Positions 3,569 to 57,387 of a stretch of DNA of 64,000 bases are shown here, one piece after another. The position numbers and the translations under genes are program-made. Position 1 is the first letter of the stretch, and each line of letters starts with the position of its first letter. A model generated the notes under the pieces. That model saw nothing but the letters and a program-made list of their open reading frames with translations. It made no database searches and had not been told where the DNA came from. The stretch comes from Eledone cirrhosa (taxonomy: Eukaryota): assembly GCA_964016885.1 (NCBI GenBank), contig OZ024740.1, positions 325,934,001 through 325,998,000 on the forward strand, read 5' to 3'.

Positions 3569-4120
3569 TCATTTATGTTTATTGCCTCTGTGATTTGTCT
3601 AAACATTGCGTCTTTTCTGAACATAGAAATAAAAATAGAATCTACACACAGAAAAGACGCAATGTTTAGACAAATCACAGAGGCAATAAACATAAATGAA
3701 CTCCAACCAAAATTAAATAGAAAACATGAATGGAATAGCAACATCACAACTTACAATTAAGGACAAAATGAAAACACACACACACAGAACAAACAACCAA
3801 CCAGTAACATGTAAATAAACAAATAAATAAACAAATATAAGCACACACAGACACCCGGATGTAACACATGCGCAAACTAAGCACACAACACACACAAAAA
3901 GAAGATGGCGTAGGACAGAACAAAGGAGAGGCACAAAAACAAAGAAAAGAATCCCCAGTCACTGAAGAGGTCACAGAATGTGTGATGAAAGAACTTTGAC
4001 AATATATGAACAACCGTCCGGTTGTGGAACCAACCAACCGGAAATTTATAAATCCTTAAATTGGAGTGAAAGCGATTGGTGCGTGTGTTTCTTATTGGCA
4101 ACGTGACCCTCCCAAAGCAT

Positions 4121-4126
<6 letters not shown>
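3569..4126 (+). mobile_element. PLE 3' fragment: GIY-YIG C-terminal end, 51-bp 5' inversion, hammerhead, terminal sequence
   Basis: ...MFRQITEAININELQPKLNRKHEW resembles the E..I....P.LN end of PLE GIY-YIG domains. Arms 3569-3619 and 3649-3699 are inverted. HHR gtca-CTGAAGA(3962)...GAAA(3987)gaac-TT-tgac. Terminus is shared with 21690-21755 and with 36600-36666 (opposite strand). Confidence 0.75.
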
Positions 4127-4193
<67 letters not shown>

Positions 4194-4327
4194 GTAGATA
4201 AATCTACCAAGAGTTTACGGTAGTGTCCAATCCGTATGAAGAACTCAATGTATTCCGGATATCATGGAAAGAAGAGATGTAATGAAAATCCACTTTCGGT
4301 GAAAGATAAACGGTATACAGAGTCAAG

Positions 4328-4742
4328 ATAAAATATTAAACAAATAATGAACAAACAATTCCTTATATTAAACAAAAAAAGTTCACTATTTAACGATCGT
4401 TTCTAGGGCATATATGTGTTATAATTGGTATGCATATTTAACAGATCTATGTACAAAATTATACAAAATTATACAAATTATCAAGATTAAATATACATAC
4501 CTAACTCATATATACGCCGTCTTCAGAAATATTATTATTATTTCTGAAGACGGCGTATATATGAGTTAGGTATGTATATTTAATCTTGATAATTTGTATA
4601 ATTTTGTATAATTTTGTACATAGATCTGTTAAATATGCATACCAATTATAACACATATATGCCCTAGAAACGATCGTTAAATAGTGAACTTTTTTTGTTT
4701 AATATAAGGAATTGTTTGTTCATTATTTGTTTAATATTTTAT
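4328..4742. repeat. ~415-bp near-perfect palindrome containing a hammerhead on each strand
   Basis: Arms of ~200 bp, axis near 4535 (cttcagaaata ttattat tatttctgaag). Confidence 0.95.
4535..4687 (+). ncRNA. Minimal type I hammerhead ribozyme with ~116-nt stem II region
   Basis: Stem I ttattattt/aaatagtga, CTGAAGA 4544-4550, stem II ggcgtatatatg...catatatgcc, GAAA 4667-4670, C-GATC-G stem III, GUU triplet. Confidence 0.75.
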
Positions 4743-4759
4743 ATATATATATATATATA

Positions 4760-4954
4760 TAACGAAGGAAATGTGGTAAGGAACCAGGTGAACCATAACG
4801 TACCAAAGTACTCAATACTTAGGGTAGTAGAGTGGGTAATAGGAACAAGTAAGACCCCGGCGGCTGAGCTCAAGCCGTTTCGACGGCTAATTCTGTACTG
4901 AATTAGCCGTCGAAACGGCTTGAGCTCAGCTGTCGGGGTCTTACTTGTTCCTAT
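4760..4954. mobile_element. ~195-bp TA-inserted element ending in a 116-bp hairpin (copy 1; copy 2 at 42074-42270)
   Basis: aacgaaggaaatgtggtaaggaaccag... followed by palindrome 4839-4954. Contains GAAAC of a probable hammerhead 3' half. Confidence 0.8.
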
Positions 4955-8599: not shown

Positions 8600-11500
8600 G
8601 TATGTAGTATGTGTTGGTGTGTTGGGGAGTATCTGTAGTGTTGGTGTGTTGGGGAGTATCTGTAGTGTTGGTGTGTTGGGGAGTATCTGTAGTGTTGGTG
8701 TGTTGGGGAGTATCTGTAGTGTGTTGGTGTGTTGGGGAGTATCTGTAGTGTTGGTGTGTTGGGGAGTATCTGTAGTGTGTGTGTGTTGGGGAGTATCTGT
8801 AGTGTTGGTGTGTTGGGGAGTATCTGCAGTGTGTGTGTGTGTTGGGGAGTATCTGTAGTGTGTGTGTGTGTTGGGGAGTATCTGTAGTGTTGGTGTGTTG
8901 GGGAGTATCTGTAGTGTGTTGGTGTGTTGGGGAGTATCTGTAGTGTTGGTGTGTTGGGGAGTATCTGTAGTGTGTGTGTGTTGGGGAGTATCTGTAGTGT
9001 TGGTGTGTTGGGGAGTATCTGTAGTGTGTGTGTGTTGGGGAGTATCTGTAGTGTGTGTGTGTGTTGGGGAGTATCTGTAGTGTGTGTGTGTTGGGAGTAT
9101 CTGCAGTGTGTGTGTTGGGGAGTATCTGTACTGTGTGTTGGTGTGTTGGGGAGTATCTGTAGTGTTGGTGTGTTGGGGAGTATCTGTAGTGTGTGGGTGT
9201 GTTGGGGAGTATCTGTAGTATGTGTGTGTTGGGGAGTATCTGTAGTGTTGGTGTGTTGGGGAGTATCTGTAGTGTTGGTGTGTTGGGGAGTATCTGTAGT
9301 GTTGGTGTGTTGGGGAGTATCTGTAGTGTTGGTGTGTTGGGGAGTATCTGTAGTGTGTGTGTGTGTTGGGGAGTATCTGTAGTGTTGGTGTGTTGGGGAG
9401 TATCTGTAGTGTTGGTGTGTTGGGGAGTATCTGTAGTGTTGGTGTGTTGGGGAGTATCTGTAGTGTTGGTGTGTTGGGGAGTATCTGTAGTGTTGGTGTG
9501 TTGGGGAGTATCTGTAGTGTTTGTGTGTTGGGGAGTATCTGTAGTGTGTGTGTGTGTTGGGGAGTATCTGTAGTGTGTGTGTGTGTTGGGGAGTATCTGT
9601 AGTGTGTGTGTGTTGGGGAGTATCTGTAGTGTGTGTGTGTGTTGGGGAGTATCTGTAGTGTGTGTGTGTTGGGGAGTATCTGTAGTGTGTGTGTGTGTTG
9701 GGGAGTATCTGTAGTGTTGGTGTGTTGGGGAGTATCTGTAGTGTTGGTGTGTTGGGGAGTATCTGTAGTGTGTGTGTGTTGGGGAGTATCTGTAGTGTGT
9801 GTGTGTGTTGGGGAGTATCTGTAGTGTTGGTGTGTTGGGGAGTATCTGTAGTGTTGGTGTGTTGGGGAGTATCTGTAGTGTTGGTGTGTTGGGGAGTATC
9901 TGTAGTGTTGGTGTTTGGGGAGTATCTGTAGTGTGTGTGTGTGTTGGGGAGTATCTGTAGTGTGTGTGTGTTGGGGAGTATCTGTAGTGTGTGTGTGTTG
10001 GGGAGTATCTGTAGTGTTGGTGTGTTGGGGAGTATCTGTAGTGTTGGTGTGTTGGGGAGTATCTGTAGTGTTGGTGTGTTGGGGAGTATCTGTAGTGTGT
10101 GTGTGTGTTGGGGAGTATCTGTAGTGTAGTGTGTGTTGGGGAGTATCTGTAGTGTTGGTGTGTTGGGGAGTATCTGTAGTGTAGTGTGTGTTGGGGAGTA
10201 TCTGTAGTGTTGGTGTGTTGGGGAGTATCTGTAGTGTGTGTGTGTTGGGGAGTATCTGTAGTGTTGGTGTGTTGGGGAGTATCTGTAGTGTTGGTGTGTT
10301 GGGGAGTATCTGTAGTGTTGGTGTGTTGGGGAGTATCTGTAGTGTGGTGTGTGTTGGGGAGTATCTGTAGTGTGTTGGTGTGTTGGGGAGTATCTGTAGT
10401 GTTGGTGTGTTGGGGAGTATCTGTAGTATGTGTTGGTGTGTTGGGGAGTATCTGTAGTGTTGGTGTGTTGGGGAGTATCTGTAGTATGTGTTGGTGTGTT
10501 GGGGAGTATCTGTAGTGTTGGTGTGTTGGGGAGTATCTGTAGTGTGTGTGTGTTGGGGAGTATCTGTAGTGTGTGTGTGTTGGGGAGTATCTGTAGTGTT
10601 GGTGTGTTGGGGAGTATCTGTAGTGTTGGTGTGTTGGGGAGTATCTGTAGTGTGTTGGTGTGTTGGGGAGTATCTGTAGTGTGTTGGTGTGTTGGGGAGT
10701 ATCTGTAGTGTGTGTGTGTTGGGGAGTATCTGTAGTGTTGGTGTGTTGGGGAGTATCTGTAGTGTTGGTGTGTTGGGGAGTATCTGTAGTGTTGGTGTGT
10801 TGGGGAGTATCTGTAGTGTTGGTGTGTTGGGGAGTATCTGTAGTGTTGGTGTGTTGGGGAGTATCTGTAGTGTTGGTGTGTTGGGGAGTATCTGTAGTGT
10901 TGGTGTGTTGGGGAGTATCTGTAGTGTTGGTGTGTTGGGGAGTATCTGTAGTGTTTGTGTGTTGGGGAGTATCTGTAGTGTTGGTGTGTTGGGGAGTATC
11001 TGTAGTATGTGTTGGTGTGTTGGGGAGTATCTGTAGTGTTGGTGTGTTGGGGAGTATCTGTAGTGGTGGTGTGTTGGGGAGTATCTGTAGTATTGGTGTG
11101 TTGGGGAGTATCTGTAGTGTTGGTGTGTTGGGGAGTATCTGTAGTGTTGGTGTGTTGGGGAGTATCTGTAGTATGTGTTGGTGTGTTGGGGAGTATCTGT
11201 AGTGTTGGTGTGTTGGGGAGTATCTGTAGTATGTGTTGGTGTGTTGGGGAGTATCTGTAGTGTTGGTGTGTTGGGGAGTATCTGTAGTGTTGGTGTGTTG
11301 GGGAGTATCTGTAGTATGTGTTGGTGTGTTGGGGAGTATCTGTAGTGTTGGTGTGTTGGGGAGTATCTGTAGTGTGTGTGTGTTGGGGAGTATCTGTAGT
11401 GTTGGTGTGTTGGGGAGTATCTGTAGTGTTGGTGTGTTGGGGAGTATCTGTAGTATTGGTGTGTTGGGGAGTATCTGTAGTGTTGGTGTGTTGGGGAGTA

Positions 11501-13860
11501 TCTGTAGTGTTGGTGTGTTGGGGAGTATCTGTAGTGTTGGTGTGTTGGGGAGTATCTGTAGTGTTGGTGTGTTGGGGAGTATCTGTAGTGTTGGTGTGTT
11601 GGGGAGTATCTGTAGTGTTGGTGTGTTGGGGAGTATCTGTAGTGTTGGTGTGTTGGGGAGTATCTGTAGTGTTGGTGTGTTGGGGAGTATCTGTAGTGTT
11701 GGTGTGTTGGGGAGTATCTGAAGTGTTGGTGTGTTGGGGAGTATCTGTAGTGTTGGTGTGTTGGGGAGTATCTGTAGTGTTGGTGTGTTGGGAGTATCTG
11801 TAGTATGTGTTGGTGTGTTGGGGAGTATCTGTAGTGTGTGTGTGTTGGGGAGTATCTGTAGTGTTGGTGTGTTGGGGAGTATCTGTAGTGTTGGTGTGTT
11901 GGGGAGTATCTGTAGTGTTGGTGTGTTGGGGAGTATCTGTAGTGTGTGTGTGTTGGGGAGTATCTGTAGTGTGTGTGTGTTGGGGAGTATCTGTAGTGTT
12001 GGTGTGTTGGGGAGTATCTGTAGTGTTGGTGTGTTGGGAGTATCTGTAGTGTTGGTGTGTTGGGGAGTATCTGTAGAGTGTGTGTGTTGGGGAGTATCTG
12101 TAGTGTTGGTGTGTTGGGGGAGTATCTGTAGTGTTGGTGTGTTGGGGAGTATCTGTAGTGTGTGTCTGTTGGGGAGTATCTGTAGTGTGTGTGTGTTGGG
12201 GAGTATCTGTAGTGTTGGTGTGTTGGGGAGTATCTGTAGTGTTGGTGTGTTGGGGAGTATCTGTAGTGTTGGTGTGTTGGGGAGTATCTGTAGTGTTGGT
12301 GTGTTGGGGAGTATCTGTAGTGTGTGTGTGTTGGGGAGTATCTGTAGTGTGTGTGTGTTGGGGAGTATCTGTAGTGTTGGTGTGTTGGGGAGTATCTGTA
12401 GTGTTGGTGTGTTGGGGAGTATCTGTAGTATGTGTTGGTGTGTTGGGGAGTATCTGTAGTGTTGGTGTGTTGGGGAGTATCTGTAGTGTTGGTGTGTTGG
12501 GGAGTATCTGTAGTATGTGTTGGTGTGTTGGGGAGTATCTGTAGTGTTGGTGTGTTGGGGAGTATCTGTAGTATGTGTTGGTGTGTTGGGGAGTATCTGT
12601 AGTGTTGGTGTGTTGGGGAGTATCTGTAGTGTTGGTGTGTTGGGGAGTATCTGTAGTGTTGGTGTGTTGGGGAGTATCTGTAGTGTTGGTGTGTTGGGGA
12701 GTATCTGTAGTGTGTGTGTGTGTTGGGGAGTATCTGTAGTGTTGGTGTGTTGGGGAGTATCTGTAGTGTTGGTGTGTTGGGGAGTATCTGTAGTGTTGGT
12801 GTGTTGGGGAGTATCTGTAGTGTTGGTGTGTTGGGGAGTATCTGTAGTGTGTGGGTGTGTTGGGGAGTATCTGTAGTGTGTGTGTGTTGGGGAGTATCTG
12901 TAGTGTTGGTGTGTTGGGGAGTATCTGTAGTGTTGGTGTGTTGGGGAGTATCTGTAGTGTTGGTGTGTTGGGGAGTATCTGTAGTGTGTGTGTGTGTTGG
13001 GGAGTATCTGTAGTGTTGGTGTGTTGGGGAGTATCTGTAGTGTTGGTGTGTTGGGGAGTATCTGTAGTGTTGGTGTGTTGGGGAGTATCTGTAGTGTTGG
13101 TGTGTTGGGGAGTATCTGTAGTGTTGGTGTGTTGGGGAGTATCTGTAGTGTTGGTGTGTTGGGGAGTATCTGTAGTGTGTGTGTGTTGGGGAGTATCTGT
13201 AGTGTGTGTGTGTGTTGGGGAGTATCTGTAGTGTTGGTGTGTTGGGGAGTATCTGTAGTGTTGGTGTGTTGGGGAGTATCTGTAGTGTGTTGGTGTGTTG
13301 GGGAGTATCTGTAGTGTGTGTGTGTTGGGGAGTATCTGTAGTGTGTGTGTGTTGGGGAGTATCTGTAGTGTTGGTGTGTTGGGGAGTATCTGTAGTGTTG
13401 GTGTGTTGGGGAGTATCTGTAGTGTTGGTGTGTTGGGGAGTATCTGTAGTGTGTGTGTGTTGGGGAGTATCTGTAGTGTTGGTGTGTTGGGGAGTATCTG
13501 TAGTGTTGGTGTGTTGGGGAGTATCTGTAGTGTTGGTGTGTTGGGGAGTATGTGTAGTGTTGGTGTGTTGGGGAGTATCTGTAGTGTTGGTGTGTTGGGG
13601 AGTATCTGTAGTGTTGGTGTGTTGGGGAGTATCTGTAGTGTTGGTGTGTTGGGGAGTATCTGTAGTGTTGGTGTGTTGGGGAGTATCTGTAGTGTTGGTG
13701 TGTTGGGGAGTATCTGTAGTGTGTGTGTGTGTTGGGGAGTATCTGTAGTGTTGGTGTGTTGGGGAGTATCTGTAGTGTGTTGGTGTGTTGGGGAGTATTT
13801 GTAGTGTAGTGTGTGTGTGTGTTGGGAAGTATCTGTAGTGTGTGTGTGTGTGTGTGTGTA
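8600..13860. repeat. 27-bp minisatellite (gttggggagtatctgtagtgttggtgt)n, roughly 190 copies
   Basis: Near-invariant GGGGAGTATCTGTAG core with variable (GT)n linker; 27/29/31-bp unit variants. Confidence 0.98.
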
Positions 13861-14975: not shown

Positions 14976-15399
14976 TTTATTTAGCTGTCTGCCGTAATGG
15001 AGGACTGTGTAATGGTGATGCTTGACACCCACGTATTTCTGTTGTTACGACGGCGACAGCGGCAGTAGTGGGGGTGGGAGTGGGGGGTGAAGAGATGGTC
15101 ATACAGGTGGTGGTGGTGGTGGTGGTGATGGTGGTGGTGGTGGTGGTGGTGGTGGTGGTGTGCGTGTGTGGAGAGAGGCTCATGAAGGTGGTGGTGGTGT
15201 GTGTGTGGAGAGAGATGATCATGAAGGTGGTGGTGGTGATGTGTGTGTGTGGAGAGAGGCTCATGAAGGTGGTGGTGGTGGTTTTGTGTGTGTGTGTGTG
15301 GAGAGATGATCATGAAGGTGGTGGTGGTAGTGGTGTGGTGTGTGGAGGGATGATCATGAAGGTGGTGGTGGTGGTGATGGTGGTTGGTGCGGTTATAGT

Positions 15400-18300
15400 G
15401 TGTGGGAGTGGTGTAGATGGTGGTGATGGTAATGGTTGTGGTGGTGGTGGTGTTGATGATGGTGGTGATGGTGATGGTTGTGGTGGTGGTGGTGTTGATG
15501 ATGGTGGTGCTGGTGATGGTTGTGGTGGTGGTCGTTATAATGGTGGTTTGTAGTGATGATTGTGGTGGTTGCGGTAATTGTGGTGTTGGTGCTGGTGCTG
15601 GTGCTGGTTGTGGTGGTGGTAGTAGTGGTCTTCATGGTTGTAGTAGTGCTGTTATTAGTGATGGTGGTTGTAGTAGTTGTGGTTATAGTGATGGTGGTGA
15701 TGGTGGTAGTGGTGGTTGTGATTATAGTGATGGTGGTAGTGGTGGTTGTGGTGGTTGTGATTATAGTGATGGTGGTAGTGGTGGTTGTGGTGTTTGTGAT
15801 TATAGTGATGGTGGTAGTGGTGGTTGTGGTGGTTGTGGTTATAGTGATGGTGGTAGTGGTGGTTGTGGTGGTTGTGATTATAGTGATGGTGGTAGTGGTG
15901 GTTGTGGTGGTTGTGATTATAGTGATGGTGGTAGTGGTGGTTGTGGTGGTTGTGGTTATAGTGATGGTGGTAGTGGTGGTTGTGGTGGTTGTGGTTATAG
16001 TGATTGTGGTGATGGTGGTAGTGGTGGTTGTGGTTATAGTTATTGTGGTGATGGTGGTAGTGGTGGTTGTGGTTATAGTGGTGGTGGTGATGGTGGTAGT
16101 GGTGGTAGTGGTTATAGTGATGGTGGTGATGGCGGTAGTGGTGGTTGTGGTTATAGTGGTGGTGGTAGTGGTGATTGTGGTTATAGTGATGGTGGTGATG
16201 GTGGTAGTGGTGGTTGTGGTTATAGTGGTGGTGGTAGTGGTGGTTGTGGTTATAGTGAAGGTGGTGATGGTGGTAGTGGTGGTTGTGGTTATAGTGGTGG
16301 TGGTGATGGTGGTAGTGGTGGTTGTGGTTATAGTGATTGTGGTGATGGTGGTAGTGGTGGTTGTGGTTATAGTGATGGTGGTGATGGTGGTAGTGGTGGT
16401 TGTGGTTATAGTGGTGGTGGTAGTGGTGGTTGTGGTTATAGTGATGGTTGTAGTGGTGTTAGTGGTGGTTGTGGTTATAGTGGTGGTGGTAGTGGTGGTT
16501 GTGGTTATAGTGGTGGTGGTAGTGGTGGTAGTGGTGGTTGTGGTTATAGTGATGGTGGTGATGGCGGTAGTGGTGGTTGTGGTTATAGTGATGGTTGTAG
16601 TGGTGTTAGTGGTGGTTGTGGTTATAGTGGTGGTGGTAGTGGTGGTTGTGGTTATAGTGATGGTTGTAGTGGTGTTAGTAGTGGTTGTGGTTATAGTGGT
16701 GGTGGTAGTGGTGGTAGTGGTGGTTGTGGTTATAGTGGTGGTGGTAGTGGTGGTAGTGGTGGTTGTGGTTATAGTGTTGGTGGTGATGGCGGTAGTGGTG
16801 GTTGTGGTTATAGTGATTTTGGTAGTGGTGTTAGTGGTGGTGGTAGTGGTGGTAGTGGTGGTTGTGGTTATAGTGGTGGTGGTAGTGGTGGTAGTGGTGG
16901 TTGTGGTTATAGTGATGGTGGTGATGGTTGTAGTGGTGGTTGTGGTTATAGTGATGGTGGTGATGGTGGTAGTGGAGGTTGTGGTTATAGTGATGGTGGT
17001 AGTGCTGGTTGTGGTTATAGTGGTGGTGGTAGTGGTGGTTGTGGTTATAGTGATGGTTGTAGTGGTGTTAGTGGTGGTTGTGGTTATAGTGGTGGTGGTA
17101 GTGGTGGTTGTGGTTATAGTGATGGTGGTGATGGCGGTAGTGGTGGTTGTGGTTATAGTGATGGTTGTAGTGGTGTTAGTGGTGGTTGTGGTTATAGTGG
17201 TGGTGGTAGTGGTGGTAGTAGTGGTTGTGGTTATAGTGATGGTAGTGATGGCGGTAGTGGTGGTTGTGTTTATAGTGATGGTTGTAGTGGTGTTAGTGGT
17301 GGTTGTGGTTATAGTGGTGGTGGTAGTGGTGGTTGTGGTTATAGTGATGGTTGTAGTGGTGTTAGTGGTGGTTGTGGTTATAGTGGTGGTGGTAGTGGTG
17401 GTAGTGGTGGTTGTGGTTATAGTGGTGGTAGTGGTGGTTGTGGTTATAGTGATGGTGGTGATGGCGGTAGTGGTGGTTGTGGTTATAGTGATTTTGGTAG
17501 TGGTGTTAGTGGTGGCTGTGGTTATAGTGGTGGTGGTAGTGGTGGTAGTGGTGGTTGTGGTTATAGTGGTGGTGGTAGTGGTGGTAGTGGTGGTTGTGGT
17601 TATAGTGATGGTGGTGATGGTTGTAGTGGTGGTTGTGGTTATAGTGATGGTGGTGATGGTGGTAGTGGTGGTTGTGGTTATAGTGATGGTGGTAGTGGTG
17701 GTTGTGGTTATAGTGATGGTTGTAGTGGTGTTAGTGGTGGTTGTGGTTATAGTGGTGGTGGTAGTGGTGGTTGTGGTTATAGTGATGGTGGTGATGGCGG
17801 TAGTGGTGGTTGTGGTTATAGTGATGGTTGTAGTGGTGTTAGTGGTGGTTGTGGTTATAGTGGTGGTGGTAGTGGTGGTACAGGTGGTTGTGGTTATAGT
17901 GATGGTTGTAGTGGTGTTAGTGGTGGTTGTGGTTATAGTGGTGGTGGTAGTGGTGGTAGTGGTGGTTGTGGTTATAGTGGTGGTGGTAGTGGTGGTAGTG
18001 GTGGTTGTGGTTATAGTGATGGTGGTGATGGCGGTAGTGGTGGTTGTGGTTATAGTGATGGTGGTAGTGGTGTTAGTGGTGGTTGTGGTTATAGTGGTGG
18101 TGGTAGTGGTGGTAGTGGTGGTTGAGGTTATAGTGGTGGTGGTAGTGTTGGTAGTGGTGGTTGTGGTTATAGTGATGGTGGTGATGGTTGTAGTGGTGGT
18201 TGTGGTTATAGTGATGGTGGTAGTGGTGGTAGTGGTGGTTGTGGTTATAGTGATGGTGGTAGTGGTGGTTGTGGTTATAGTGATGGTGGTAGTGGTGGTT

Positions 18301-19945
18301 GTGGTTGTGGTTATAGTGATGGTGGTAGTGGTGGTAGTGGTGGTTGTGGTTATAGTGATGGTGGTGATGGTGGTAGTGGTGGTTGTGGTTATAGTGATGG
18401 TGGTGATAGTAGTAGTGGTGGTTGTGGTTATAGTGATGGTGGTAGTGGTGGTAGTGGTGGGTGTGGTTATAGTGATGGTGGTAGTGGTGGTTGTGGTTAT
18501 AGTGATGGTGGTAGTGGTAGTTGTGGTTATAGTGATGGTGGTGATAGTAGTAGTGGTGGTTGTGGTTATAGTGATTGTGGTGATGGTGGTAGTGGTGGTT
18601 GTGGTTATAGTGATGGTGGTGATGGTGGTAGTGGTGGTTGAGGTTATAGTGATGGTGGTGATGGTGCTAGTGGTGGTTGTGGTTATAGTGATGGTGGTAG
18701 TGGTTGTAGTGGTGGTTGTGGTTATAGTGGTGGTTGTGGTTATAGTGATGGTGGTAGTGGTAGTTGTGGTTATAGTGATGGTGGTAGTGGTGGTTGTGGT
18801 TATAGTGATGGTGGTAGTGGTGGTTGTGGTTATAGTGATGGTGGTAGTGGTGGTTGTGGTTATAGTGATGGTGGTAGTGGTGGTTGTGGTTATAGTGATG
18901 GTGGTGATAGTAGTAGTGGTGGTTGTGGTTATAGTGATGGTGGTAGTGGTGGTTGTGGTTATAGTGATGGTGGTAGTGGTGGTTGTGGTTGTGGTTATAG
19001 TGATGGTGGTAGTGGTGGTAGTGGTGGTTGTGGTTATAGTGATGGTGGTGATGGTGGTAGTGGTGGTTGTGGTTATAGTGATGGTGGTGATAGTAGTAGT
19101 GGTGGTTGTGGTTATAGTGATGGTGGTAGTGGTGGTAGTGGTGGGTGTGGTTATAGTGATGGTGGTAGTGGTGGTTGTGTTTATAGTGATGGTGGTAGTG
19201 GTGGTTGTGGTTATAGTGGTGGTTGTGGTTATAGTGATGGTGGTAGTGGTGGTTGTGGTTATAGTGATGGTGGTAGTGGTGGTTGTGGTTATAGTGATGG
19301 TGGTAGTGGTGGTTGTGGTTATAGTGATTGTGGTGAAGGTGGTAGTGGTGGTTGTGGTTATAGTGATGGTGGTAGTGATGGTTGTGGTTATAGTGATGGT
19401 GGTGATAGTAGTAGTGGTGGTTGTGGTTATAGTGTTGGTGGTAGTGGTGGTTGTGGTTATAGTGATGGTGGTAGTGGTGGTTGTGGTTATAGTGATGGTG
19501 GTAGTGGTGGTTGTGGTTATAGTGATGGTGGTAGTGGTGGTTGTGGTTATAGTGATGGTGGTGATAGTAGTAGTGGTGGTTGTGGTTATAGTGATGGTGG
19601 TAGTGGTGGTTGTGGTTATAGTGATGGTGGTAGTGGTGGTTGTGGTTATAGTGATGGTGGTAGTGGTGGTTGTGGTTATAGTGATGGTGGTGATAGTAGT
19701 AGTGGTGGTTGTGGTTATAGTGATGGTGGTGATGGTGGTAGTGGTAGTTGTGGTTATAGTGATTGTGGTGATAGTGGTGATGGTCGTGGTGGTAGTGGTG
19801 GTTGTGGTTATAGTGATTGTGGTGATAGTATTGATGATGGTGGTGGTTGTGTTGGTTGTGATTATAGTGATTGTGGTGATAGTGGTGGTGGTGGTCGTCG
19901 TCGTGGTAGTGACGGTGGTGGTTGTCGTTGTCGTGGTGACAATAG
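15400..19945. repeat. Triplet-based compound minisatellite (ggt ggt agt ggt ggt tgt ggt tat agt gat)
   Basis: Nearly all triplets are NNT. One frame reads GGSGGCGYSD, another poly-Val. Confidence 0.95.
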
Positions 19946-21585: not shown

Positions 21586-21749
21586 ATATTGTTATACTTT
21601 GGGAGGGTCATGTTGCCAATAAGAAACACATGCACCAGTTACTTTCACTTCAATTTATTATAATAAATTTATAAATTTATTATAATAAATTGAAGTGAAA
21701 GCAACTGGTGCGTGTGTTTCTTATTGGCAACATGACCCTCCCAAAGTAT

Positions 21750-21756
<7 letters not shown>
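21586..21756. repeat. 170-bp palindrome made of two head-to-head PLE terminal sequences
   Basis: attgttatactttgggagggtcatgttgccaataagaaacac... and its reverse complement, axis near 21671. Confidence 0.9.
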
Positions 21757-21833
<77 letters not shown>

Positions 21834-23686: not shown

Positions 23687-23788
23687 TTGGTGGTCTGAAT
23701 ATATATATATATATGTGTGTGTGAATGAAGTAATTCCGTCGGAAAGGTCCAGGAAAAAAGAGTGCTCTATGTAGGTTACAGAGCTTAT

Positions 23789-23962
23789 TAGTTATGTAAT
23801 AAACAACATAAGATAATTATTTCATTTACCAGTGGTTTCTTGAAAGCAAACAAAATTTGCTTTCAGTCATCAGAATTCTGATGACTGAAAGCAAATTTTG
23901 TTTGCTTTCAAGAAACCACTGGTAAATGAAATAATTATCTTATGTTGTTTATTACATAACTA
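23789..23962. repeat. Perfect 174-bp palindrome with no loop, centred on GAATTC; each arm is a hammerhead core
   Basis: Axis 23875/23876. CTGATGA 23878-23884, 10-bp stem II tgaaagcaaa/tttgctttca, GAAA 23912-23915, cc-act-gg, GUA. Confidence 0.92.
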
Positions 23963-42073: not shown

Positions 42074-42270
42074 TAACGAAGGAAATGTGGTAAGGAACCA
42101 GATGGATCATAACGCACCAAAGTACTCAATACTTAGGGTAATAGAGTGGGTAATAGGAACAAGTAGGACCCCGACAGCTGAGCTCAAGCCGTTTCGACGG
42201 CTAATTCTGGACTCAGAATTAGCAGTCGAAACGGCTTGAGCTCAGCCGTCGGGGTCCTACTTGTTCCTAT
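42074..42270. mobile_element. Copy 2 of the hairpin-terminated TA-inserted element (see 4760-4954)
   Basis: Same ends and same hairpin axis (gacggctaattctg gact cagaattagcagtc). Confidence 0.8.
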
Positions 42271-46098: not shown

Positions 46099-49000
46099 AA
46101 ACATATAGTATAGGTATATAACCTATAGTATAGGTATATAACATATAGTATAGGTATATAACCTATAGTATAGGTATATAACATATAGTATAGGTATATA
46201 ACCTATAGTATAGGTATATAACATATAGTATAGGTATATAACATATAGTATAGGTATATAACATATAGTATAGGTATATAACCTATAGTATAGGTATATA
46301 ACATATAGTATAGGTATATAACCTATAGTATAGGTATATAACATATAGTATAGGTATATAACCTATAGTATAGGTATATAACCTATAGTATAGGTATATA
46401 ACATATAGTATAGGTATATAACATATAGTATAGGTATATAACATATAGTATAGGTATATAACCTATAGTATAGGTATATAACATATAGTATAGGTATATA
46501 ACCTATAGTATAGGTATATAACATATAGTATAGGTATATAACCTATAGTATAGGTATATAACCTATAGTATAGGTATATAACATATAGTATAGGTATATA
46601 ACATATAGTATAGGTATATAACATATAGTATAGGTATATAACATATAGTATAGGTATATAACCTATAGTATAGGTATATAACATATAGTATAGGTATATA
46701 ACCTATAGTATAGGTATATAACATATAGTATAGGTATATAACATATAGTATAGGTATATAACCTATAGTATAGGTATATAACATATAGTATAGGTATATA
46801 ACATATAGTATAGGTATATAACCTATAGTATAGGTATATAACATATAGTATAGGTATATAACATATAGTATAGGTATATAACATATAGTATGGGTATATA
46901 ACATATAGTATAGGTATATACCCTATAGTATAGGTATATACCCTATAGTATAGGTATATAACATATAGTATAGGTATATAACATATAGTATAGGTATATA
47001 ACATATAGTATAGGTATATAACCTATAGTATAAGTATATAACCTATAGTATAGGTATATAACATATAGTATAGGTATATAACCTATAGTATAGGTATATA
47101 ACATATAGTATAGGTATATAACATATAGTATAGGTATATAACATATAGTATAGGTATATAACATATAGTATAGGTATATAACCTATAGTATAGGTATATA
47201 ACCTATAGTATAAGTATATAACCTATAGTATAGGTATATAACATATAGTATAGGTATATAACATATAGTATAGGTATATACCCTATAGTATAGGTATATA
47301 CCCTATAGTATAGGTATATAACATATAGTATAGGTATATAACATATAGTATAGGTATATAACATATAGTATAGGTATATAACCTATAGTATAGGTATATA
47401 ACATATAGTATAGGTATATAACCTATAGTATAGGTATATAACATATAGTATAGGTATATAACCTATAGTATAAGTATATAACCTATAGTATAGGTATATA
47501 ACATATAGTATAGGTATATAACCTATAGTATAGGTATATAACCTATAGTATAGGTATATAACCTATAGTATAGGTATATAACCTATAGTATAGGTATATA
47601 ACCTATAGTATAGGTATATAACCTATAGTATAGGTATATAACCTATAGTATAGGTATATAACCGATAGTATAAGTATATAACCTATAGTATAGGTATATA
47701 ATCTATAGTATAGGTATATAACATATAGTATAGGTATATCACATATAGTATAGGTATATAACCTATAGTATAGGTATATAACCTATAGTATAGGTATATA
47801 ACCTATAGTATAAGTATATAACCTATAGTATAGGTATATAACCTATAGTATAGGTATATAACATATAGTATAGGTATATAACATATAGTATAGGTATATA
47901 ACCTATAGTATAGGTATATAACATATAGTATAGGTATATAACATATAGTATAGGTATATAACATATAGTATAGGTATATAACCTATAGTATAGGTATATA
48001 ACATATAGTATAGGTATATAACCTATAGTATAAGTATATAACCTATAGTATAGGTATATAACCTATAGTATAGGTATATAACATATAGTATAGGTATATA
48101 CCCTATAGTATAGGTATATAACCTATAGTATAGGTATATAACATATAGTATAGGTATATAACCTATAGTATAGGTATATAACCTATAGTATAGGTATATA
48201 ACATATAGTATAGGTATATAACATATAGTATAGGTATATAACCTATAGTATAGGTATATAACCAATAGTATAGGTATATAACATATAGTATAGGTATATA
48301 ACATATAGTATAGGTATATAACCTATAGTATAGGTATATAACCTATAGTATAGGTATATAACCTATAGTATAGGTATATAACATAGTATAGGTATATAAC
48401 ATATAGTATAGGTATATAACCTATAGTATAGGTATATAACATATAGTATAGGTATATAACCTATAGCATAGGTATATAACATATAGTATAGGTATATAAC
48501 CTATAGCATAGGTATATAACATATAGTATAGGTATATAACCTATAGTATAGGTATATAACTTATAGTATAGGTATATAACCTATAGTATAGGTATATAAC
48601 ATATAGTATAGGTATATAACCTATAGTATAGGTATATAACCAATAATATAGGTATATAACATATAGTATAGGTATATAACATATAGTATAGGTATATAAC
48701 CTATAGTATAGGTATATAACATATAGTATAGGTATATAACCTATAGTATAGGTATATAACCTATAGTATAGGTATATAACATATAGTATAGGTATATAAA
48801 ATATAGTATAGGTATATAACCTATAGTATAGGTATATAACCTATAGTATAGGTATATAACATATAGTATAGGTATATAACATATAGTATAGGTATATAAC
48901 ATATAGTATACGTATATAACATATAGTATAGGTATATAACCTATAGTTTAGGTATATAGCATATAGTATAGGTATATAACCTATAGTATAGGTATATAAC

Positions 49001-49440
49001 ATATAGTATAGGTATATAACATATAGTATAGGATTATAACATACAGTATAGATATATAACATATACTATAGGTATATAACATATAGTATAGGTATATAAC
49101 AGATAGTATAGATAAATAACCTATAGTATAGGTATATAACCTATAGTATAGGTATATAACATATAGTGTAGGTATATAACATATAGTGTAGTTATATAAC
49201 ATATAGTATAGTTATATAACATATAGTATAGGTATATAACATATAGTATAGGTAAATAACATAGTATAGGTATATAAACTATTGTATAGGTAAATAACCT
49301 ATAGTATAAGTATATAACATAGTATAGGTACATAACATAGTAACAGCATAAAACTTATAGTATAGGCAAATAACATAGTATAGGTAAAATTTATAGTATA
49401 GACATAACATAGTATAGGTAAAACTTATAGTATAGACATA
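46099..49440. repeat. 20-bp minisatellite (ac[a/c]tatagtataggtatata)n, ~165 copies
   Basis: Direct reading; degenerates after ~48900. Confidence 0.98.
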
Positions 49441-52389: not shown

Positions 52390-57370
<4,981 letters not shown>

Positions 57371-57387
57371 TATTTATATCATATTCG

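What the first reader, a model, noticed from the sequence alone, without database searches (positions are those of the whole stretch)
4328..4742. 415-bp palindrome folding back at the 5' edge of hammerhead stem I; ribozyme has a very long stem II
Seen: the axis (~4535) coincides with the start of the stem I 5' strand. The HHR has a 9-bp stem I (with G-U pairs), a C-GATC-G stem III and ~116 nt between CTGAAGA and GAAA, closed by ggcgtatatatg/catatatgcc. This is a second, unrelated family with a ribozyme-anchored fold-back, and the stem II region is far longer than in the other motifs here.
Basis: partly seen in the sequence, partly recalled or inferred. Interest (0 to 1): 0.7.

Follow-up and report, generated by a model that had tools for sequence, protein, structure and literature searches.

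The report
Penelope stub marks capped RNA start
This palindrome is the two-armed stub of a very common jumping gene whose predicted self-cutting RNA motif has an unusually long side arm kept across relatives, and hundreds of its copies turn back at one base, often with an extra G, which likely marks the capped start of the element's RNA rather than the ribozyme itself.

Summary
The palindrome (4328-4742, axis 4535) and the type I hammerhead motif with a 116-nt stem II are real. They are part of a 552-bp 5'-truncated insertion (4191-4742) of a young, abundant Penelope-like element with Hydra-clade motifs, sitting in (TA)n. The long stem II is a family trait: 190 of 191 cores have 98-126 nt, and its base stays paired through compensatory changes. 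The axis is a real hotspot: 385 fold-backs versus 4 and 5 in control windows. Arms stop sharply at the A seven bases before the core, inside an initiator-like TCATT. About 30% carry a non-native G there, versus about 5% elsewhere, as expected from copying an RNA cap. None of 30 internal pLTRs starts there, which argues against a stall at the ribozyme. Best model: one capped RNA is copied from two fixed start sites, and the two cDNAs are joined head to head. Long tandem copies need another template (ribozyme-made circle or read-through RNA). No RNA data were found and cleavage is untested. The scan noted such stubs, twin priming and long stems II elsewhere in this genome; the cap signature was not in the notes returned.

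The parts
4191..4742 (.). Whole insertion: two head-to-head arms of the element's pLTR in a (TA)n tract
   Evidence: TA tracts at 4125-4190 and from about 4741
4191..4531 (-). Long arm: pLTR from position -5 to the long (distal) 3' end
   Evidence: 100% match to the 341-nt pLTR of full-length copies; breakpoint -5
4191..4327 (-). 137-nt one-sided 'tail' between the two fixed 3' ends
   Evidence: short arms end 137 nt before long arms in nearly all of 70 short arms
4532..4536 (.). 5-nt non-element junction filler, probably ATT slippage; this copy has no extra G
   Evidence: gap 5
4537..4742 (+). Short arm: from position -7 (inferred RNA 5' end) to the short 3' end
4537..4543 (+). Stem I 5' strand (7 element nt); A4537 is the inferred +1 of an initiator-like TCATT in intact copies
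   Evidence: initiator consensus recalled
4544..4550 (+). Hammerhead core CUGAAGA
4551..4666 (+). 116-nt stem II rod; C-A first pair, C-C mismatch at position 4, 10-nt repeat at the apex
4564..4568 (+). DPE-like AGTTA at +28 to +32 from A4537 (AGACG in subfamily B; imperfect in the commonest subfamily)
   Evidence: Penelope DPE in PMC2377424
4667..4678 (+). GAAA, palindromic minimal stem III (dimer type) and GUU; predicted cut after 4678
   Evidence: two copies pair at -13.8 kcal/mol
4679..4689 (+). Stem I 3' strand
4718..4728 (+). Downstream copy of the stem I 5' strand, predicted to sequester the stem I 3' strand
   Evidence: pairing probability 0.81-0.95 versus 0.0 for stem I; 0-5 of 100 shuffles as good in 13 of the 14 commonest variants
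4382..4531 (-). Mirror hammerhead motif on the long arm; predicted cut after 4392

Best explanation
This is a 5'-truncated, two-armed insertion of a young Penelope-like retrotransposon with Hydra-clade motifs, likely made when one RNA, probably capped at the A seven bases before the hammerhead core, was copied from two fixed internal start sites and the two cDNAs were joined head to head. Shown: family, ORF, (TA)n target, two fixed 3' ends 137 nt apart, the -7 boundary, the extra G, and near-identical arms within a locus. Inferred steps: (1) Pol II starts at an internal initiator in the pLTR. (2) The RT-endonuclease nicks both strands of (TA)n; one nick primes at the long end and the other at the short end. 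(3) Both cDNAs run off the RNA 5' end, sometimes copying the cap as an extra base. (4) End joining through 1-2 nt of AT microhomology or filler makes the palindrome. The axis meets stem I only because the RNA starts there. The hammerhead is a dimer-type motif with a conserved 98-126-nt stem II, predicted to be off as a monomer. Copies longer than one unit would come from a different template without this 5' end, such as a circle made by ribozyme cuts at two pLTRs, or a read-through RNA.
For: Identity: full copies carry an RT plus GIY-YIG ORF with RWR, DKT, CxCX5C, YRDD, CxxC and CxH, matching the Hydra description except RWR for RWK. Unit 6111 bp; 5009 long ends. Hotspot: 385 fold-backs at the stem I edge versus 4 upstream, 5 in stem II and 30 at stem III/cut site. 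In a position-ordered sample, 27 of 68 long and 34 of 64 short arms that reach the core end within +4 to -25; per-nt rate 0.013-0.018 versus at most 0.0023 elsewhere. Boundary is one-sided: of 143 truncated arms, 76 at -7, 50 at -2 to -6, 13 at -8 to -11, 4 beyond (33 of 67 at -7 in the unbiased part). Extra G before -7: 21 of 76 versus 3 of 50 at -2 to -6 (p 0.002) and 3 of 58 elsewhere; 13 of 39 versus 2 of 24 after removing bases the other arm could template (p 0.03); 29 of the first 100 of 1730 genome matches (hand count; p 0.0002; overlaps the sample). An extra G is the cap signature at full-length L1 junctions (PMC11702581). Penelope has an internal pLTR promoter with a DPE, RGACGTGY (PMC2377424); subfamily B has AGACGT exactly at +28. 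Two primings on one template: arms identical in 50 of 68 loci versus 35 of 300 random pairs, 10 with a sequence private to the locus; short arm reaches more than 10 nt further 5' than the long arm in 15 of 38, some not overlapping it at all. The anole PLE protein cuts and extends both strands and starts at two internal sites (PMC11167929).
Against: No RNA evidence for the start site, the cap or cleavage. 0 of 30 pLTRs that run on into the ORF begin at -7, which a simple 'capped full-length RNA' model would predict; a second template class has to be added. About 70% of -7 junctions have no G, this window's copy included. The -7 count is inflated by AT microhomology and TA flanks. The DPE is imperfect (TGTTG) in the commonest subfamily, which still shows the hotspot. 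A second family with the same TCATT before its core has no sharp hotspot there. An AATAAA at -21 to -16 offers another source of a 5' end.
Confidence: 0.65

Rival explanations
1. The reverse transcriptase stalls at the folded ribozyme or at a protein bound to it, but only at the pLTR where priming took place, so the axis is ribozyme-anchored.
For: The stop lies within the stem I 5' strand. The long stem II could be a protein-binding arm. The anole hammerhead needs the element's protein.
Against: 0 of 30 stops at internal pLTRs versus 61 of 132 at terminal ones (p 1e-7). RT has already crossed the stable stem II before it stops. The boundary is one base sharp with an extra G. No such hotspot in a second family.
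Confidence: 0.12
2. The 5' end is made by 3'-end processing: cleavage after the CA at -8/-7 downstream of AATAAA releases a pLTR-only RNA that is then copied.
For: AATAAA at -21 to -16, a CA, and a GU-rich stretch behind it are visible in intact copies. An AATAAA lies upstream of the core in subfamily B and in the second family too.
Against: Cleavage after CA would start the RNA at -6, but -7 dominates (76 versus 13). An uncapped end does not explain the G. The hexamer-to-cut distance of 9 nt is short (recalled range 10-30).
Confidence: 0.1
3. Self-primed hairpin copying (one cDNA folding back, or self-priming on an antisense RNA as proposed for rotifer PLEs) makes the palindrome.
For: Arms are near-identical. 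Head-to-head palindromes were read this way in PMC3846280.
Against: Loop-less junctions with 2-nt overlap are the commonest. In 15 of 38 stubs neither arm can be a copy of the other. Several junctions have a G on both arms (L065, L079, L240).
Confidence: 0.1
4. The palindromes are long-read chimeras or assembly errors.
For: Fold-back chimeras are a known long-read artefact (recalled).
Against: Arms have two fixed, different biological ends in (TA)n; junctions vary and cluster at one base; one arm of one type and one of the other in 43 of 50, the rest partly unclassified.
Confidence: 0.02

Closest known systems
Hydra clade of C-terminal EN+ Penelope-like elements (Craig et al. 2021, PMC8557442; passages, section 11, supplement parts 1-2 and a term search read)
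   Same: RT then GIY-YIG; DKT, CxCX5C, CxxC, CxH; (TA)n target; type I hammerhead in the pLTR; inverted 5'-truncated copy (noted for Penelope-13_HM); visibly alignable with the printed Hydra-1_Obim protein.
   Different: Unit 6.1 kb versus generally under 3 kb; RWR for RWK; N-rich linker insert; tail 137 nt versus 30-40 bp; stem II region 98-126 nt versus stems of 3-7 bp with 3-10-nt loops for the Hydra rows of file S2.
Minimal/dimeric PLE hammerheads (Cervera and de la Pena 2014, PMC4209133; parts 1-2 of 4 read)
   Same: Type I, palindromic minimal helix III, extra nucleotide after A9, pairs of motifs on opposite strands 100-700 bp apart, circle model for more-than-unit copies.
   Different: Helix II there is 6-8 bp with a conserved G10.1-C11.1; here a C-A first pair (62 of 63 variants) and a rod about five times longer, plus a downstream competitor strand.
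Poseidon_Ac internal RT initiation (Frangieh et al. 2024, PMC11167929; parts 1-2 of 4 read)
   Same: Two internal start sites define the tail; both target strands are cut and extended; start sites lie downstream of the hammerhead.
   Different: The parts read do not address the 5' junction, a cap signature or the source of the inverted arm.
L1 twin priming and cap-derived extra G (PMC11702581; passages read)
   Same: Second priming on the other target end, end joining with microhomology, extra G at the RNA 5' end.
   Different: In L1 the second priming site varies and the pieces barely overlap; here both sites are fixed and the pieces usually overlap fully.
Penelope pLTR internal promoter (Schostak et al. 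2008, PMC2377424; section 15 and passages read) and Adineta vaga PLE palindromes (PMC3846280; passages read)
   Same: Internal Inr/DPE promoter in the pLTR; head-to-head palindromes at the inverted junction.
   Different: The palindromes were explained there by self-priming on an antisense template, with the question left open; the junctions here point to a capped sense template.

Membership tests
EN+ Penelope-like element | Single ORF with RT and C-terminal GIY-YIG endonuclease | tested here: met
   (YRDD; IVYKC..SYIG); 260 homologs at E<=1e-20, one named a predicted GIY-YIG endonuclease; Pfam itself gave 0 hits
EN+ Penelope-like element | pLTRs, partial tandems, inverted 5'-truncated copy, one-sided tail | tested here: met
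   (230 tandem junctions)
Hydra clade | DKT instead of DKG | tested here: met
Hydra clade | CxCX5C linker; CxxC and CxH near the C terminus | tested here: met
Hydra clade | N-terminal RWK motif | tested here: inconclusive
   RWR at the equivalent place: a conservative change
Hydra clade | Insertion into (TA)n | tested here: met
Hydra clade | Generally short (under 3 kb); a tendency, not a strict criterion | tested here: not met
   unit 6111 bp
Hydra clade | Placement in the RT phylogeny; absence of IFD and of CCHH | not tested
   no tree or reference alignment was run
Type I hammerhead ribozyme | CUGANGA, GAAA, NUH with A15.1-U16.1 and three helices | tested here: met
   191 of 204 cores fit, with GUU or GUA in nearly all; Rfam 0 hits
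Type I hammerhead ribozyme | Watson-Crick 10.1-11.1 pair (usually G-C) | tested here: not met
   C-A in 62 of 63 variants; precedents: c/a in PLE-X1_cBra, t/t in Hydra rows, U-U (PMC3088659)
Type I hammerhead ribozyme | Self-cleavage after GUU | not testable with these tools
   indirect only: 4 of 30 fold-backs near the site have both arms within 1 nt of it; 2 long arms start at +135
Non-LTR retrozyme | Non-coding tandem monomers, each with a hammerhead | tested here: not met
   the motif belongs to the pLTR of a coding 6.1-kb unit

The most novel reading that the evidence does not exclude
The junctions record two RNA templates in one Penelope-like family. Capped pLTR transcripts are double-primed at two fixed sites and give the stub palindromes. 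Full-length tandem copies are made on a unit-length RNA circle produced by dimeric hammerhead cleavage, gated by a 116-nt stem II and an anti-stem-I hairpin. This would be genomic evidence for both the sense-strand origin of PLE inverted ends and the proposed circular intermediate.
Probability: 0.25. Interest if true: 0.72.

Novelty: new variant of a known kind. Interest (0 to 1): 0.45.

Why it matters
How PLEs get their inverted ends, and what their hammerheads do, are stated as open in the papers read (PMC3846280, PMC8557442, PMC11167929). This family offers thousands of young junctions that give a single-base prediction for the RNA start, favour a capped sense template copied twice over antisense self-priming, and imply that long copies use a template without that end. 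Each point can be tested directly. The long stem II is a conserved structural variant of a known ribozyme; on its own it is of modest interest.

Tried and rejected
Rfam at gathering score: 0 hits. Pfam on the 765-aa ORF piece: 0 hits. RNA runs: no RNA holder listed. Contigs of public runs laid on the pLTR and on the junction: pieces cross junctions of this kind, but none listed has 31 letters on both sides and the sample may be the assembly's own, so not counted. Two different RNAs (a cross-subfamily dimer) as templates of the two arms: rejected, no locus showed a clear cross-subfamily pair and 62 of 68 differ by at most 2 columns. A general ribozyme-anchored axis: not seen in the 23789-23962 family; 19 close fold-backs among 680 cores with scattered axes, most sampled copies running well upstream. 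The competitor hairpin as a general feature: mixed in subfamily B (0-99 of 100 shuffles as good) and significant in only 1 of 6 other motifs in the window. MAFFT misaligned the 3' side of stem II between subfamilies, so pairs were counted by symmetric register instead. There a slide of 2 also pairs well (0.89 and 0.68 versus 0.97) because of the AT repeat, and the compensatory changes amount to only a few subfamily-level events. A splice branch point at -7 was considered (YUNAY-like) and dropped: the AG is only about 12 nt away and nothing else supports it. Endonuclease cutting at its own ATT was considered and dropped: it predicts stops at internal pLTRs too and no G. A genome-wide count of fold-backs whose long arm runs into the ORF was not obtained; only 30 of 230 such pLTRs were inspected. 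Lunse et al. 2017 was not held, and the Terminon paper was not seen; either may describe long-stem or C-A variants. Paper searches returned no report of a cap signature or a start-site hotspot at PLE inverted junctions; most subscription papers are outside the library.

Full report
1. Observation. The palindrome is at 4328-4742 with centre 4535: 204 perfect pairs and a 7-nt centre. The + strand has CTGAAGA (4544), 116 nt, GAAA, C-GATC-G and GTT (4676-4678); the - strand has the mirror motif. Stem II folds as one rod, z -5.46, although the centroid structure lacks stem I. Rfam found nothing at gathering score. Positions below are counted from the C of CTGAAGA.

2. What it is. A search of the window's own 3.0-Gb genome gave 56 matches at 99-100% identity from 40 scored of 810 candidates. 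Nine longer loci showed a roughly 6-kb element with an RT plus GIY-YIG ORF and two kinds of 3' end, one 137 nt beyond the other. The ORF has RWR, DKT, YRDD, CxCX5C, CxxC and CxH, as described for the Hydra clade apart from RWK (PMC8557442 section 11); no tree was run. The best named homolog is a hypothetical protein of Argonauta hians. Exact-pattern counts: 5009 long ends, 3719 core starts of the GGCG type, 1507 of one intact-upstream variant, 230 pLTRs that run into the ORF. The unit is 6111 bp, with the ATG 490 nt after the core. The window copy is a long arm (-5 to the long end, 4531-4191, minus strand), 5 nt of filler, and a short arm (-7 to the short end, 4537-4742) in (TA)n. Inverted truncated copies and one-sided tails are known PLE features (PMC8557442 passages; PMC3846280 passages).

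3. Stem II. Of 204 distinct core occurrences, 191 fit the full motif; 190 of these have 98-126 nt between the core strands and one has 42. Among 63 distinct long variants (65 found, 2 poly-C slippage variants dropped), the symmetric register gives: position 1 C-A in 62; position 2 G-U 51 or G-C 12; position 4 C-C in all; position 5 G-C 21, A-U 21, G-U 17; position 6 U-A 43, U-G 10, G-C 9; positions 7-11 paired in 59-63. The caveats are few independent events and an AT repeat that also pairs when slid by 2. The Hydra rows of file S2 have stems II of 3-7 bp with 3-10-nt loops, and odd first pairs including c/a occur in that table. Stem III is one extra pair plus a palindromic loop, the dimer type (PMC4209133); two copies pair at -13.8 kcal/mol. 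A downstream copy of the stem I 5' strand (4718-4728) is predicted to take the stem I 3' strand (probability 0.81-0.95 versus 0.0). It beats shuffles in the main subfamilies but not consistently in subfamily B or other families. The monomer is thus predicted to be off; cleavage is untested.

4. The axis. Fold-backs within 30 nt number 385 at the stem I edge (GGCG subfamilies only), versus 4 upstream, 5 in stem II and 30 around stem III and the cut site. I fetched the first 100 listed long ends and the 93 listed core starts in the same 91 Mb (7 core starts beyond that range were left out). Of the arms that reach the core, 27 of 68 long and 34 of 64 short arms end in +4 to -25, at least five times the per-base rate of any other bin. 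Pooling this sample with 49 fetched fold-backs, 76 of 143 truncated arms start at -7, 50 at -2 to -6, 13 at -8 to -11 and 4 beyond. The native base at -8 is C, yet a G stands there in 21 of 76, versus 3 of 50 and 3 of 58 in controls; 13 of 39 versus 2 of 24 remain after removing bases the other arm could template. In the genome listing it is 29 of the first 100 of 1730 (hand count; overlaps the sample). An extra G marks the cap at full-length L1 junctions (PMC11702581 passages). The -7 A lies in TCATT, like the initiator TCAKTY (recalled). +28 to +32 reads AGTTA in this subfamily and AGACG in subfamily B, but TGTTG in the commonest one. Penelope's internal promoter has RGACGTGY (PMC2377424 section 15).

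5. Against a ribozyme anchor. All 30 inspected pLTRs (of 230) that run into the ORF extend at least 216 nt upstream; none starts at -7 (p 1e-7 against 61 of 132). A stall at the ribozyme should act there too. The result also rules out a linear, capped two-pLTR RNA as the usual template of full-length copies, which weakens the simplest form of my own model. It requires a second template without that end: a circle from cuts at two pLTRs, as proposed in PMC4209133, or read-through RNA. I cannot separate these. Hints of cleavage are weak: 4 of 30 fold-backs have both arms within 1 nt of the cut site. A second hammerhead family in the window has the same two-end layout but scattered axes.

6. Two primings on one RNA. 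Of 50 fold-backs, 43 have one long and one short arm and 7 were partly unclassified. Arms are identical in 50 of 68 loci versus 35 of 300 random pairs. Of 60 long arms that break near or within the pLTR, 38 have an adjacent inverted short arm; in 15 the short arm reaches further 5', in 4 the long arm does, and 19 agree within 10 nt (BLAST ends are approximate). Neither arm can then be a hairpin copy of the other. This fits the anole PLE protein, which extends both target strands and starts at two internal sites (PMC11167929 parts 1-2), and it differs from the antisense self-priming proposed in PMC3846280.

7. Verdict. A new variant of a known kind. The identity is near certain, double priming likely (about 0.8), and the capped start likely (about 0.7); together about 0.65. 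No RNA run was available. Earlier scan notes report similar stubs, twin priming and long stems II on other DNA of this genome; none of the 24 rows shown mentions a cap signature, and a sequence look-up found nothing. Also read: bioRxiv 10.64898/2026.07.22.740005 part 1 of 5, PMC6765202 passages, PMC3088659 passages. Lunse et al. 2017, unread supplements of PMC4209133 and the Terminon paper may bear on the novelty of the long stem II. Interest 0.45.

Noticed in passing
window 4761-4954 and 42077-42270: Two copies of another fold-back family (palindromes 4839-4954 and 42153-42270) with a partial core-like GCCGTCGAAAC motif; the first sits in the same (TA)n tract as this insertion.
   Followed up: no
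window 23700-23962: Second hammerhead family, 680 cores in the genome, with the same short-end/long-end layout, a C-A first pair in stem II, and scattered fold axes.
   Followed up: partly
window 6285/6431, 41362/41637, 32638/35927: Three further inverted pairs of hammerhead motifs with stem II regions of 47, 50 and 31 nt; the last has 433-nt identical arms around 2.6 kb. The 41637 motif also opens stem II with C-A.
   Followed up: no
window 3962 (+), 36380 (-), 37774 (+): Single hammerhead-like motifs; 36380 has a strong downstream competitor for its stem I 3' strand (0 of 100 shuffles); 37774 has a 179-nt spacer and may be chance.
   Followed up: partly
window 21586-21757 and about 4070-4124: A 172-bp palindrome without a detected core, and a related single arm next to the (TA)n left of this insertion.
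   Followed up: no
L207, behind the short and the long 3' end: Similar small hairpins (TTTCACCGAAA and TTTCACGGAAA) lie about 25 and 15 nt behind the two ends; predicted folds are weak (-4.9 and -6.8 kcal/mol). Echoes the twin hairpins in earlier notes.
   Followed up: partly
L122:492-577: Subfamily B-like copy with stem II cut to 42 nt while its base stays paired: a natural deletion control for a cleavage assay.
   Followed up: no
L090, L166, L070: The 10-nt repeat at the stem II apex varies in copy number (105, 115, 126 nt), sometimes between the two arms of one insertion.
   Followed up: partly
G000:C1:49908700-49919100 (L038-L039): A 9.7-kb fully palindromic insertion of this family, folding inside the ORF.
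   Followed up: no
L037 ORF, linker between RT and endonuclease: An N/K/T-rich stretch of roughly 110 aa, like the N-rich inserts of Adineta vaga PLEs.
   Followed up: no
window 8611-13851, 15106-19938, 46100-49435, 52390-57384: Long tandem arrays of 27-bp, GGT-rich, 20-bp and AT-rich units.
   Followed up: no
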